The position numbers and the translations under genes were made by a program. A stretch of DNA of 64,000 nt from a virus (taxonomy: Duplodnaviria > Caudoviricetes), in IMG/VR virus record IMGVR_UViG_3300013426_000016, positions 128,001-192,000 of that record; one strand, given 5' to 3'. The notes under the pieces are model-generated. The model made no database searches and was not told the DNA's origin. It saw only the letters and a list, made by a program, of their open reading frames with translations. The first letter of the stretch is position 1. Every line of letters begins with the position of its first letter. This document shows, piece by piece, positions 42,737 through 51,386 of this stretch.

Positions 42737-42837
42737 AGAAATCCCAGGGAAAAATTTCTCTGGGATTTTTTTAAAAATATTTGGAAATGTCAAATATTTT
42801 TTTATCGCGCGCGCGTGCGTATATAATAATAGGTATA

Positions 42838-42891
42838 TCGAGTCAGTGCTGAGCACTCTGAAGAGTCTTTGAAAATTAAGACGAAACTCGG
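42838..42891 (+). ncRNA. Hammerhead ribozyme (type III)
   Basis: Stem III CGAG/CTCG; GUC cleavage triplet (cut after 42844); stem I AGTGC-TGA-GCACT; CTGAAGA core; stem II GTCTT/AAGAC; GAAA. Confidence 0.9.
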
Positions 42892-42921
42892 CAAGAAGTT
42901 TAATATTTAATTTAAGTAAAA

Positions 42922-47845: not shown

Positions 47846-48146
47846 GGCCCGTTGTTGGAACTGGTAGAGGTCTGCCCATTACAATGTTAATGAATTGCTT
47901 CAAATTCGGTATCAGTTAGATAAGACATTTTTGTACGAATAAGCTGACTAAGAAAGCCTGATATACCAGAAATGGTAAGTAGTGGTAATACCGAGCTAAG
48001 CCTTTTTAAGGAAAGTGTAGAGACTAGACGGAGCACTAGAAGATATAGTCCGAAGATAAATAAAAATTTATCAAAATTCAAGACAAAACGGTCTTAAAAA
48101 CCGTTTCCAAGCATTTGGAGTGCGTGTTCAAATCACGTACGGGCCA
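47846..48146 (+). tRNA. tRNA-Leu (TAA), split by a group I intron in the D-loop (exons 47846-47865, 48081-48146)
   Basis: Spliced: GGCCCGT TG TTGGAACTGGT|AGACAA A ACGGT CTTAAAA ACCGT, long variable arm, T loop TTCAAAT, ACGGGCC A. Confidence 0.85.
47866..48080 (+). mobile_element. Group I intron in tRNA-Leu D-loop
   Basis: P1 GGTAG/CTGCC (U.G at U20); P3 TGCTTC/GGAGCA; P4 TTCGGT/ACCGAG; P7 GACTA/TAGTC; P9 GATAAAT/ATTTATC; P10 GTCT/AGAC. Confidence 0.85.
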
Positions 48147-48232
48147 CTAAATAATTTTTTATAAAAATGAAAACTAATTATTCCAAAGAAAATTTAGAAA
48201 AAAATCAGGTAATGTAAACAAACGATAATTTT

Positions 48233-48640
48233 ATGCAACCTTTATTTTACACTGCATTAAAAGATGTTTCTGATGCTTTAGTTTCTAATAAAGAATTAGA
48301 AATACTTCTTCCTCCAAAAGTAAATGGAAAATATCATTTTTATTTTGGATATGGTGATTTTAATTATAATTATCATAATCTGAAAGTAGATGATGGTTTC
48401 TATTATCACTTAGGTAATTATAATTGGAAACAAGCCGTAGTTACTTATAAGCGTTCTGGAGTTCTTTTTTATAAAGACTCTGATTCTAAGAAAGAGAAAG
48501 CCGCATTTAAAGAGGAAGCTTTCTTTAAATATATCTGTCCTATGTACATTCTTGTACCAGACGATAGGTTTAGTGTTACTTGTATTTGCCCTTTAACTGA
48601 ATTTAAAGATGTGCTTTTGGAAGAAAAAACCTCGCTATAA
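48233..48640 (+). CDS. Hypothetical protein
   Basis: 135 aa ORF. Confidence 0.6.
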   Translation: MQPLFYTALKDVSDALVSNKELEILLPPKVNGKYHFYFGYGDFNYNYHNLKVDDGFYYHLGNYNWKQAVVTYKRSGVLFYKDSDSKKEKAAFKEEAFFKYICPMYILVPDDRFSVTCICPLTEFKDVLLEEKTSL

Positions 48641-48827
48641 TGCAGATCTTGTTTATCAGCATTATGATAAAATTTTGCATTGTATAACAAGCTGTAATAC
48701 TATTCCTCAATTATATGTAACAAGAGTAATGATAAAACAATTTTATGATCGTTTTATGGATTCTCAGCTTACAAATAGTCTGAGAGAGTTTTACAGACAA
48801 AAAAGGAAACAAATTTACAATCGTTAA
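48609..48827 (+). CDS. Hypothetical protein
   Basis: 72 aa ORF. Confidence 0.55.
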   Translation: MCFWKKKPRYNADLVYQHYDKILHCITSCNTIPQLYVTRVMIKQFYDRFMDSQLTNSLREFYRQKRKQIYNR

Positions 48828-48842
48828 TTGTGAATTACACTA

Positions 48843-48921
48843 TAATCTAAAAGAGTGGGTTCAATTCCCACTATCACCAGGTAACAGAGGTGATATAGTG
48901 TAATTGGGGCACATTAGATTA
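48843..48921 (+). ncRNA. Circularly permuted tRNA-like RNA (T arm, loop-closed acceptor stem, D arm; YrlA Y-RNA-like topology)
   Basis: TAATCTAA AAGA GTGGG-TTCAATT-CCCAC TATCACC-AGGTAACAGA-GGTGATA TA GTGT-AATTGGG-GCAC A TTAGATTA; every stem pairs. Confidence 0.75.
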
Positions 48922-48925
48922 ATAT

Positions 48926-48997
48926 TGAAATATGGTGTAATGGTTAGCACTTCAGATTTTGGTTCTGGCAGTTTAGGTCCGAATCCTAATATTTCAA
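48926..48997 (+). tRNA. tRNA-Gln (TTG)
   Basis: Acceptor TGAAATA/TATTTCA; anticodon arm TCAGA-TTTTGGT-TCTGG; T loop TCCGAAT (atypical C55). Confidence 0.85.
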
Positions 48998-49018
48998 CTA
49001 AATTTAATTTTCATCATT

Positions 49019-49622: not shown

Positions 49623-49693
49623 GCTCGGATCGTCTAATGATTAGGACAACTTCCTCTCCGGTTGTTATATAGGTTTGACTCCTATTCCGAGTA
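49623..49693 (+). pseudogene. Degenerate tRNA-Glu(CTC)-like element
   Basis: Acceptor GCTCGGA/TCCGAGT, D and T stems intact; anticodon stem mismatched, D loop lacks GG, T loop TTTGACT. Confidence 0.6.
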
Positions 49694-49701
49694 CTACTTT
49701 T

Positions 49702-49999
49702 GGGTTACTTCAGCATTTATATTTAAAGTACCACTTTATTTTTTTTTACTCATGTAACCTGTTTTTTAAGATTACTTTTTAAAGATTACTTCAGCATTAA
49801 ATTTTTAATTTAGAGCATTGATTTTTGCAAAATTATTTTTATAGTAATCTGATTTTTTAAGGTTGATTATACAGCATTTCATTAAAGAATTTGTGATTCA
49901 TAATTTCAGCCTGGTTTTTTTTTGGAAATAGTTCAGCATTCCTTTTTGCAAATGATTAGTTTTTTAGACCATTGTATAGGGGAGAGACACACTATTTCG
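49702..49999 (+). repeat. Array of four stem-WCAGCA structured RNA units
   Basis: GGGTTAC/GTAACCT, AGATTAC/GTAATCT, AGGTTGA/TCAGCCT and GAAATAG/CTATTTC stems. Each 5' arm is followed by (T/A)CAGCATT and each 3' arm by G. Confidence 0.7.
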
Positions 50000-50033
50000 A
50001 CATAAAGTCTCTCTCCTATACTTTTTATTTTTT
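49974..50033 (+). terminator. Terminator/attenuator-like hairpin just before the DUF2828 gene
   Basis: 15-bp stem GTATAGGGGAGAGAC/GTCTCTCTCCTATAC plus a T-rich tail ending at the ATG. Confidence 0.55.
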
Positions 50034-51386
50034 ATGAACAAATTAGTCGAATCTCTTGACATGGGGTATACTAAAAACGGTGCCCTTACATATAAGACAT
50101 CTCTTAACAAATGTCTCGATCTCTTCTTTGTTATAGGCTGCCATAATGATTATTCTGAGCTATTTTGGGAAGCATATAAAGAAGATGCACAACTTGCATT
50201 ACGTATTCTTTTTTGGAGTAGAGATTGTAGAGGAGGAGCTGGAGCAAGAAGAACTTTCCAAGAAGTTATTAAAGTTCTTTCCGGTAGCCCAGAATTTTCA
50301 AAAGTCCTAAAATATATTCCAGAATTTGGATATTGGAAGGATCTTTTTAAACTTTCTCCAACTAAAGAGATAGCCGATTTTATTATCGCTACTTTAAAGA
50401 ATGAAAATGATCATTCTTTGTGTGCTAAATACTGTCCACGTAAAGGACTGTGGTTTGGTTATTTGCGAAATCTAATGCACATGTCTGCTAGGGATTTTCG
50501 CCATTACATAGTATATAAAACACAAGTTGTGGAACAGCTTATGTGTGCTAATAAATGGTCAGAAATAGAGTATTCTTCAGTTCCGTCTCTCGCTGGGCTT
50601 AGATACTCTAAATTATTCCTTAAGCATGATCCAGAACGTTATAAAACATATATAGATAAAGTAAATGAAGGAAAGGAGAAAATAAATGCTTCTGTTCTTT
50701 ATCCACATGAAATTTTTGCTTCTTACATGACAGATAAAAAAAGAGATGTAACAAGAGCTTTGTGGAATGCTTTACCTAATTATATGCAAGATTGTAATGA
50801 AAACATTTTGCCTATATGTGATGTTTCTGGTTCTATGATAGGTCTTCCTATGAATATTTCTGTATCTTTGGGTTGTTATATCTCAGAAAGAAATACTGGA
50901 GACTTTAAAGATTGTATTATCACTTTTTCCCAATGTCCGGAGTTTGTTAAACTTACTGGAAGTATAGATGAACGCTTTGCTCAATTAAGAACAAGCTCAT
51001 GGGGATTTAATACTAATCTGCGACGAGTATTTGATCTTATTTTGAAACGAGCTGTTATGAATGAAGTTCCAAAAGAAGATATGCCTACTAAGTTGTTGAT
51101 TATCAGTGACATGGAACTAGACGATGCGTCACCAGAGTATACAAACTTTGAAGCTATTAAACAAAAATATGCAGCTTCTGGATATGAGATGCCTACTATT
51201 ATTTTCTGGAATGTTAATGGAAGATTAAATAATATTCCTGTACAAAAAGATGAAAAGAATGTAGCACTTGTTTCCGGATATTCACCAAGTATCTTAACGC
51301 ATCTTTTGAAAGGAGAGGTTCTTACTCCTATGCAAATAATGCTAGATACAGTAAACTCTGAACGTTATCAGTGTATTAGGTTGTAA
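50034..51386 (+). CDS. DUF2828-family protein with C-terminal vWA domain (Ro60/TROVE-like)
   Basis: TKNGA..S..CLDLFF, RDCRGGAG.R, EFGYWKDL, YSSVPS, DVSGSM (MIDAS), ISDME, IIFWNV, LVSGYSP. Confidence 0.85.
   Translation: MNKLVESLDMGYTKNGALTYKTSLNKCLDLFFVIGCHNDYSELFWEAYKEDAQLALRILFWSRDCRGGAGARRTFQEVIKVLSGSPEFSKVLKYIPEFGYWKDLFKLSPTKEIADFIIATLKNENDHSLCAKYCPRKGLWFGYLRNLMHMSARDFRHYIVYKTQVVEQLMCANKWSEIEYSSVPSLAGLRYSKLFLKHDPERYKTYIDKVNEGKEKINASVLYPHEIFASYMTDKKRDVTRALWNALPNYMQDCNENILPICDVSGSMIGLPMNISVSLGCYISERNTGDFKDCIITFSQCPEFVKLTGSIDERFAQLRTSSWGFNTNLRRVFDLILKRAVMNEVPKEDMPTKLLIISDMELDDASPEYTNFEAIKQKYAASGYEMPTIIFWNVNGRLNNIPVQKDEKNVALVSGYSPSILTHLLKGEVLTPMQIMLDTVNSERYQCIRL

What the first reader, a model, noticed from the sequence alone, without database searches (positions are those of the whole stretch)
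48833..48921. Circularly permuted tRNA-like gene with YrlA topology and a built-in antisense switch
Seen: the 3' half of a tRNA (T arm, acceptor 3' strand) precedes the 5' half (acceptor 5' strand, D arm). The acceptor stem is closed by a 10-nt loop, and the anticodon stem extends to 8 bp with no loop. The leader AATTACACTATA (48833-48844) is the exact complement of TATAGTGTAATT (48894-48905), so it could unfold the D arm. Established: permuted tRNA genes are known in some algae and an archaeon, and YrlA has a loop-closed acceptor stem. Inference: a Y-RNA-like mimic, or a precursor ligated into a tRNA (most junctions give loop TTAATAA). Standard tRNA scanners would miss it.
Basis: partly seen in the sequence, partly recalled or inferred. 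Interest (0 to 1): 0.85.

Follow-up and report, generated by a model that had tools for sequence, protein, structure and literature searches.

The report
Handle-less tRNA mimic beside Ro60-like gene
A gut phage carries a real "scrambled" tRNA-shaped RNA gene just upstream of a gene for a Ro60-shaped RNA-binding protein; it looks like an odd, dispensable member of a large phage family of Y-RNA-like tRNA mimics rather than a precursor of a working tRNA, and its proposed on/off switch exists in the sequence but is unproven.

Summary
The T arm, loop-closed 7-bp acceptor stem, D arm and 8-bp anticodon stem are all present (0 of 30 shuffled genomes match). Rejoined, it scores as tRNA-Ile. A second haplotype has a compensatory T-stem change.

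The element lies 1.1 kb upstream of a DUF2828 gene whose model folds like Ro60 (Z 21.4). I recovered 87 distinct cores of this topology, nearly all phage; 18 of 19 complete carrier genomes encode this protein family. This scan reported that family before, on other DNA.

This copy is atypical. It lacks the family's CAGCA handle (four handles sit separately, 0.8 kb downstream) and YrlA's GNCGAA motif, and it alone lacks both the Levitt pair and A21. It does not hit Rfam YrlA. A 93%-identical sister lineage has an unrelated ORF in place of 48818-48921, so leader plus mimic form a dispensable cassette.

The 12-nt antisense leader is beyond chance, but which fold wins depends on the unknown 5' end.

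Best reading: a handle-less tRNA-elbow mimic of the Ro60-like system (0.55). Rivals: decaying relic (0.25), ligated tRNA-Ile (0.1), functional switch (0.1). No expression was shown.

The parts
48609..48827 (+). 72-aa ORF ending just before the leader; its stop codon overlaps the antisense arm
   Evidence: ORF kept open in the sister lineage L395/L396 as a 78-aa version; 6 synonymous and 5 non-synonymous codon changes over 66 codons
48818..48921 (+). Exchangeable cassette (antisense leader plus permuted core); the left edge is approximate (48815-48823)
   Evidence: Replaced by an unrelated segment of about 290 nt with an 87-aa ORF in L395-L397, whose flanks are 93% identical
48812..48836 (+). 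Upstream hairpin that can hide the 5' part of the leader
   Evidence: Part of the minimum-energy fold of 48810-48925, which gives the cloverleaf; z -4.35
48825..48844 (+). Antisense arm; the perfect 12-mer is 48833-48844, complementary to 48894-48905, extendable to 48916
   Evidence: the 12-mer is invariant in 16 same-species loci
48843..48850 (+). Anticodon-stem 3' strand (5 bp plus 3-bp extension)
48851..48854 (+). 4-nt variable region; position 48 is A, so there is no Levitt partner for A15
   Evidence: 48852 A>G is polymorphic
48855..48871 (+). T arm
   Evidence: 5/5 pairs; haplotype B has compensatory G48857A + C48869T and loop purine A48863G
48872..48895 (+). Acceptor stem as a hairpin: 3' strand 48872-78, 10-nt loop 48879-88 (A73 first, no encoded CCA after it), 5' strand 48889-95
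   Evidence: 7/7 Watson-Crick pairs; pairing probability 1.0 in every context folded
48896..48913 (+). U8-A9, D arm (G18 G19 kept, A21 absent), position 26
   Evidence: C48912T in haplotype B keeps G10-U25
48914..48921 (+). Anticodon-stem 5' strand with extension; 3' edge of the cassette
48922..48998 (+). 4-nt leader (shared with the sister lineage, so not part of the cassette) and tRNA-Gln(UUG) at 48926-48998
49623..49693 (+). Normal-order tRNA-like RNA with an aberrant anticodon arm
   Evidence: T-arm scan; no variable site in 12 variants; similar element at the same place in L220, L222, L224
49702..49998 (+). Four stem + WCAGCA handle hairpins (about 49702-760, 49783-850, 49860-912, 49925-998) with no tRNA core
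   Evidence: the same motif occurs beside DUF2828 genes of many phages
50034..51386 (+). DUF2828/DUF7788 protein (phrog_850), predicted Ro60 fold (helical ring plus vWA domain)
   Evidence: model pLDDT 87; Foldseek top 12 hits are all Ro60/TROVE; VIA Z 21.4, rmsd 3.6, 371 aligned to 1yvp

Best explanation
The element is a non-coding tRNA mimic of the phage's Ro60-like (DUF2828) RNA system. It has the YrlA-type tRNA domain but lacks the protein-docking handle that its relatives carry in the same RNA; in this phage the handles are four separate hairpins near the gene. SHOWN: the sequence anatomy, the family, the gene linkage, the Ro60 fold (predicted model), one compensatory change, and absence from a sister lineage. 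INFERRED: it is co-transcribed with tRNA-Gln; RNase P cleavage at 48926 sets its 3' end; it folds as a tRNA elbow with an open anticodon end. Its 7-bp acceptor could be cut by RNase P and given CCA, as shown for M. smegmatis YrlA (PMC4201824), yielding a two-piece RNA that looks like a tRNA already cut in the anticodon loop. Its most likely job is as a decoy or substrate mimic for tRNA-recognising host defence or decay enzymes, or for the Ro60-like ring, not as a decoder. The antisense arm is best read as an inverted copy of the D-arm region that came with the cassette; it may bias folding but is not shown to regulate anything.
For: Ro60-fold gene 1.1 kb downstream on the same strand; related genes are annotated 'Ro-like RNA binding protein' in mycobacteriophages. 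Same topology in 87 non-redundant cores. Of 72 matches to a pattern that did not require acceptor pairing, 61 paired at 6/7 or better, against 3.3 with shuffled partners. None of about 39 ordinary tandem-tRNA junctions exceeded 5/7. DUF7788 is found in 18/19 complete carrier genomes versus 1/11 complete control phages (controls are related to each other). Family members give sub-threshold YrlA hits of 32-49 bits against a cut-off of 69. All 5 variable sites in the core are structure-compatible and include both sides of one pair, P about 0.02. A Ro60-like protein upstream of the tRNA array of phage Bas63 counters the Ppl defence (PMC11482910); that it is this same family is my inference from its position.
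Against: No handle in cis: 70 of 87 cores have WCAGCA plus a closing stem (the search selected for CAGCA), and all 3 cores found without that filter also had a handle. It is the only one of 87 lacking both the Levitt pair (77/87 have it) and A21 (74/87). A sister lineage lacks it altogether, and four related phages with about 59% identical DUF2828 have no permuted core within 6 kb. When the whole cassette is folded free, the model predicts the leader-paired form, not the cloverleaf. The compensatory pair is in the T stem, which both folds share.
Confidence: 0.55

Rival explanations
1. A decaying relic: a former handle-bearing Y-like RNA that lost its handle and tertiary contacts and picked up a local inverted duplication; it now has little or no function.
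For: No handle, Levitt pair or A21; absent from the sister lineage; no orthologue near the DUF2828 gene of the next-closest phages; the core has more variable sites per base (0.066) than neighbouring ORFs or tRNA-Gln; the inverted copy spans about 30 nt with gaps, as template switching would leave.
Against: 23 of 24 stem pairs are Watson-Crick and the other is the usual U13-G22; all 5 variants are compatible and one pair is compensatory (P about 0.02); present in all 16 loci of this lineage examined.
Confidence: 0.25
2. A true permuted tRNA-Ile gene: RNase P opens the acceptor loop and frees the 3' end at tRNA-Gln, and the phage RNA ligase joins the halves in the anticodon loop.
For: All 8 junctions give ARAGORN tRNA-Ile, with U32 U33 and A37 A38 available; 7-bp acceptor plus A73; only 14/87 family cores have 5 or more anticodon-stem pairs; the phage encodes an RNA ligase (phrog_968, E 4.5e-44, about 100 kb away) and has no other Ile tRNA among its plain ARAGORN calls; a permuted core in L206 with the same acceptor sequence carries an AAU anticodon hairpin.
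Against: No bulge-helix-bulge at the junction (plain 8-bp helix) and no evident signal for an exact 5' cut; no Levitt pair or A21; stems lack the E. coli Ile identity pairs C4-G69, U12-A23, C29-G41 (own knowledge); nucleotides 48922-25 belong to the shared tRNA-Gln leader; no RtcB or CCA-adding enzyme found in the genome; the Ro60-like family explains the topology without ligation.
Confidence: 0.1
3. A functional two-state switch: the leader unfolds the D arm (its own, or that of tRNA-Gln) unless masked, for example by a ribosome ending the upstream ORF at 48825-27, so translation controls maturation.
For: Complement beyond chance; equal energies of the two folds; masking up to 48840 moves P(anticodon stem) from 0.0 to 1.0; the leader is inside the cassette and the 12-mer is invariant in 16 loci.
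Against: No covariation between leader and target; invariance over 12 nt is expected at this low divergence; unique among 87 cores (next best 7 nt); the outcome depends on the unknown 5' end (P(leader paired) 0.1-1.0); 2D energies ignore tRNA tertiary stability.
Confidence: 0.1

Closest known systems
YrlA Y RNA (Rfam RF02553) bound by Rsr/Ro60 (Chen et al. 2014, PMC4201824; structure in bioRxiv 10.1101/312249)
   Same: Order T arm, loop-closed acceptor, D arm; RNA ends on the anticodon side; no anticodon loop; Ro60-fold gene within 4 kb on the same strand; 7-bp acceptor like the RNase P-cleaved M. smegmatis YrlA.
   Different: No GNCGAA motif, no long Ro-binding stem, no Levitt pair, no A21; no RF02553 hit at E up to 10; the partner is DUF2828/DUF7788 (10-17% identity to solved Ro60s), not a recognised TROVE protein.
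Phage DUF2828-linked CAGCA-handle RNAs
   Same: Same permuted core; same partner gene; this locus has four handle hairpins.
   Different: Here the tRNA core and the handles are separate RNAs; the core is closed by an 8-bp anticodon stem, has an antisense leader, and has no upstream anticodon hairpin (29/87 relatives have one).
Thermus phage phiLo Ro60 with Yrl1/Yrl2 (PMC12135203)
   Same: Phage-encoded Ro60 fold with small RNAs upstream of the gene (model matches 9l5y: Z 14.1, rmsd 4.9, 377 aligned).
   Different: Yrl1/2 use a CGAA motif in a 5'-3' stem-bulge; the passages I read describe no tRNA core.
Circularly permuted tRNA genes of algae and Thermofilum (from memory, not checked here)
   Same: 3' half precedes 5' half, and the halves rejoin into a full cloverleaf with the break in the anticodon loop.
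   Different: Those use a bulge-helix-bulge and the splicing endonuclease; this one has neither feature evident and sits in a phage that appears to infect bacteria.

Membership tests
YrlA (RF02553) | T arm, closed acceptor hairpin, D arm in permuted order | tested here: met
YrlA (RF02553) | Ro60 orthologue within 4 kb on the same strand | tested here: met
   DUF2828 gene 1.1 kb downstream; predicted fold matches Ro60 (Z 21.4, rmsd 3.6, 371 aligned); met by fold, not by sequence
YrlA (RF02553) | GNCGAA(N)G motif near the 5' end, in a long 5'-3' Ro-binding stem | tested here: not met
   No such motif in 48780-48850; the closing helix is 8 bp only
YrlA (RF02553) | Levitt pair 15:48 and U8-A14-A21 triple | tested here: not met
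   A15 with A48; G at the 21 position
YrlA (RF02553) | Rfam score at or above 69 bits | tested here: not met
   No hit at E up to 10 at this place
YrlA (RF02553) | Bound by the Ro60 protein; carries tRNA modifications | not testable with these tools
   Needs pull-down and modification mapping
DUF2828-linked CAGCA-handle RNAs | Permuted core with covarying stems | tested here: met
   40.1 bits with a model built without it; the score alone is not specific, since ordinary tandem-tRNA junctions reach 42-44 bits; 7/7 acceptor pairing is what separates it
DUF2828-linked CAGCA-handle RNAs | DUF2828/DUF7788 gene in the genome | tested here: met
DUF2828-linked CAGCA-handle RNAs | WCAGCA handle with closing stem around the core | tested here: not met
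   Nearest matches (48656, 48764) lie inside the upstream ORF, and I found no stem from them enclosing the core
Circularly permuted tRNA genes | Rearranged halves give a canonical tRNA | tested here: met
   ARAGORN tRNA-Ile for all 8 junctions, with non-canonical 15:48 and no A21
Circularly permuted tRNA genes | Bulge-helix-bulge at the joined ends | tested here: not met
   Plain 8-bp helix by inspection
Circularly permuted tRNA genes | Circular intermediate and mature charged tRNA | not testable with these tools
   Needs RT-PCR and aminoacylation assay

The most novel reading that the evidence does not exclude
The cassette is processed by RNase P and the phage's own RNA ligase into a tRNA-Ile, or deliberately left as a pre-nicked two-piece tRNA, with the antisense leader gating maturation. 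That would be a permuted tRNA gene matured without a splicing endonuclease, in a phage.
Probability: 0.1. Interest if true: 0.88.

Novelty: new variant of a known kind. Interest (0 to 1): 0.5.

Why it matters
The function of the tRNA-like domain of bacterial Y RNAs is still open. This locus naturally separates the two modules (tRNA core versus protein handle) and has a close sister lineage without the core, so it offers a direct test of what the tRNA-like part does on its own. It also adds to the evidence that DUF2828 is a second, widespread Ro60 branch in phages with its own small RNAs, which tRNA scanners miss and Rfam scores below its cut-off. If the RNA were ligated, it would be a new route to a tRNA.

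Tried and rejected
Expression: no RNA holder listed; only contigs could be laid, so nothing is known about transcription or ends.

Single-sequence fold of DUF2828 was unusable (pLDDT 39). Sequence search of the PDB found no Ro60; only the alignment-based model did.

I guessed two wrong Rfam accessions (RF02924, RF02565); neither is informative.

No orthologue of this exact element was found at intermediate distance. The pattern search gave nothing in viral contigs and only two near-identical contigs in metagenomes (L206, L207: same acceptor sequence, different handle). The flanking ORFs returned only their own clusters. BLAST of the rejoined tRNA found no parent tRNA.

A handle at 48656 was considered and dropped: it lies in a conserved ORF, and a common variant (48651) appears to break its stem.

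The promoter scan was at chance level (17 versus 12.5 +/- 3).

The covariance-model score was rejected as a membership test because tandem tRNA junctions score as high. Pair counts on A2 are inflated because the scanner selected for pairing; the unbiased test is.

The first relaxed scanner had a bug and found nothing (first part). The bacterial-genome pattern scan was mostly noise, with about 7 cores in 80 loci. Literature searches found no paper on DUF2828 RNAs or on permuted tRNA genes in phages, but the library is incomplete.

Full report
Setting. The window is part of a 203,856-base virus record. Sample names of related contigs point to gut metagenomes. The finding sits between a 72-aa ORF and tRNA-Gln(UUG), in a stretch with several odd tRNA-like elements, 1.1 kb upstream of a 450-aa DUF2828/DUF7788 gene.

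1. Observation. ARAGORN and Rfam do not report it. A strict permuted core arose 0 times in 30 shuffled genomes, and this is the only one in the real genome. The 12-nt leader complement is exact and unlikely by chance (P about 3e-4 to 8e-4). It extends to about 19 bp with a 4-nt bulge.

2. The neighbouring protein. With a 75-sequence alignment the DUF2828 model is confident (pLDDT 87). Foldseek's first 12 hits are all Ro60/TROVE structures. VIA-align gives Z 21.4, rmsd 3.6, 371 residues against Xenopus Ro with RNA, well above the vWA-only hits at Z 10.7 or less. A shared fold does not prove RNA binding, but relatives are annotated Ro-like in mycobacteriophages.

3. The family. My scanner first found the same topology beside a distant DUF2828 gene (L017), then in wV8, Halena and phiM19 and, by eye, Cronobacter phage S13. 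There the core lies inside a hairpin whose 5' strand runs into an unpaired WCAGCA motif. A pattern search gave 87 non-redundant cores. The pattern did not ask for acceptor pairing, yet 61 of 72 matches pair at 6/7 or better, against 3.3 for shuffled partners. Ordinary tandem-tRNA junctions never exceeded 5/7. The Levitt pair, also not selected for, is kept in 77 of 87. DUF7788 is present in 18 of 19 complete carrier genomes and 1 of 11 complete control phages; the controls are related to each other, so this is indicative only. Members hit YrlA only below threshold. I reached this before opening the scan's notes; earlier notes report the same family on other DNA, which is agreement, not independent proof.

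4. How this copy differs. It has no handle around it; four handle hairpins lie on their own at 49702-49998. It lacks GNCGAA and has no YrlA hit. It is the only one of the 87 without both the Levitt pair and A21, and the only one with a long antisense leader (12 nt; next best 7).

5. Natural variation. Sixteen same-species loci give three haplotypes. Haplotype B (L217, L218, and independently a contig of run X1) changes a T-stem pair G-C to A-U on both sides, keeps a purine at T-loop position 57, and turns G10-C25 into G-U. All five variable sites fit the cloverleaf; five random transitions would do so and include a full pair with P about 0.017. This is modest evidence of selection, mostly on the T arm. 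A sister lineage (L395-L397, 93% identical flanks) has an unrelated 87-aa ORF in place of about 48818-48921, while keeping the upstream ORF, tRNA-Gln, the downstream ORFs and at least one handle hairpin. So leader plus core form one exchangeable, dispensable cassette, and bases 48922-25 belong to the tRNA-Gln leader. The sister contigs are short, so a copy elsewhere in those genomes is not excluded. Four related phages with about 59% identical DUF2828 have no permuted core near the gene; two have a normal-order tRNA-like RNA with a long anticodon arm before tRNA-Gln.

6. The switch. The cloverleaf and leader-paired folds both score -23.0 kcal/mol. An RNA starting at 48815-33 favours the leader fold (0.9-1.0). 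Starting at 48790-48810, an upstream hairpin competes and the folds are mixed. Starting at 48836 or later, or masking the leader as a terminating ribosome might, gives the cloverleaf. There is no covariation to show the pairing is selected, and a local inverted duplication explains it equally well. The leader also fits the tRNA-Gln D arm.

7. Mechanism. Shown: anatomy, family, linkage, predicted fold, variation. Inferred: co-transcription with tRNA-Gln, a 3' end from RNase P, and a tRNA-elbow fold with an open anticodon end. M. smegmatis YrlA with a 7-bp acceptor is cut by RNase P and gains CCA (PMC4201824), so the same could happen here and would give an RNA resembling an anticodon-cut tRNA. 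I rate a handle-less mimic acting as decoy or substrate in the Ro60-like system at 0.55, a decaying relic at 0.25, a ligated tRNA-Ile at 0.1 and a functional switch at 0.1. The ligation route is not excluded, because the phage encodes an RNA ligase. But there is no bulge-helix-bulge, no RtcB or CCA enzyme was found, and tertiary contacts are missing. A counter-defence role is suggested by Bas63 gp130 (PMC11482910), assuming it belongs to this family, which I did not test.

8. Verdict. A real feature. It works like the tRNA domain of YrlA but is not a YrlA member, and it is an atypical relative of an uncatalogued phage family that this scan has met before. New variant of a known kind; interest 0.5.

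Noticed in passing
window 47846-48148: tRNA-Leu(UAA) interrupted in the D loop by an insert of about 215 nt with group I intron motifs; removing it gives ARAGORN tRNA-Leu. Variants L212, L215 and L216 have a spacing about 214 nt longer here; I did not look at why.
   Followed up: partly
window 49623-49693: Normal-order tRNA-like RNA with a 10-nt-loop anticodon arm, invariant within the species and present just before the handle hairpins in related phages L220, L222, L224.
   Followed up: partly
window 49702-49998: Four CAGCA handle hairpins; the sister lineage L395 lacks the first; the fourth overlaps a 15-bp hairpin at 49975-50022 just before the DUF2828 start.
   Followed up: partly
87-member family (e.g. 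L105, L112, L114, L154, L173): 29 of 87 permuted cores carry a complete anticodon stem-loop upstream of the T arm, with varied anticodons (Lys, Arg, Thr, Ile, Phe, Asn, Asp), so many are whole tRNAs opened at position 26/27; possible anticodon-nuclease decoys.
   Followed up: partly
L113, L146, L152, L155, L166, L192: The acceptor loop (TTGGTC) is complementary to a GACCA just upstream of the handle: a possible conserved pseudoknot.
   Followed up: no
L206, L207, L253, L259, L112: Permuted cores with a different handle motif (GTTACTTC type, no CAGCA); the one complete carrier genome without DUF7788 was L112.
   Followed up: no
L079 8869-9111; L223 7330-7430; L224 9490-9605: Normal-order tRNA-like genes with long anticodon arms; those in Cronobacter phage S13 carry the CAGCA motif inside the arm.
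   Followed up: no
G000 C1 38494-38568: tRNA with a UCA anticodon; long ORFs cover more of the genome with TGA read as Trp (crude count), suggesting recoding.
   Followed up: partly
window 42837-42892 and 561-774: Type III hammerhead ribozyme and a group I intron above Rfam thresholds.
   Followed up: no
G000 C1 about 73296-74678: 460-aa RNA ligase (phrog_968).
   Followed up: partly
L395/L396 315-605: The alternative allele at this site: an 87-aa ORF followed by a GNRA-capped hairpin that shares a 7-nt motif with this element's acceptor loop.
   Followed up: no
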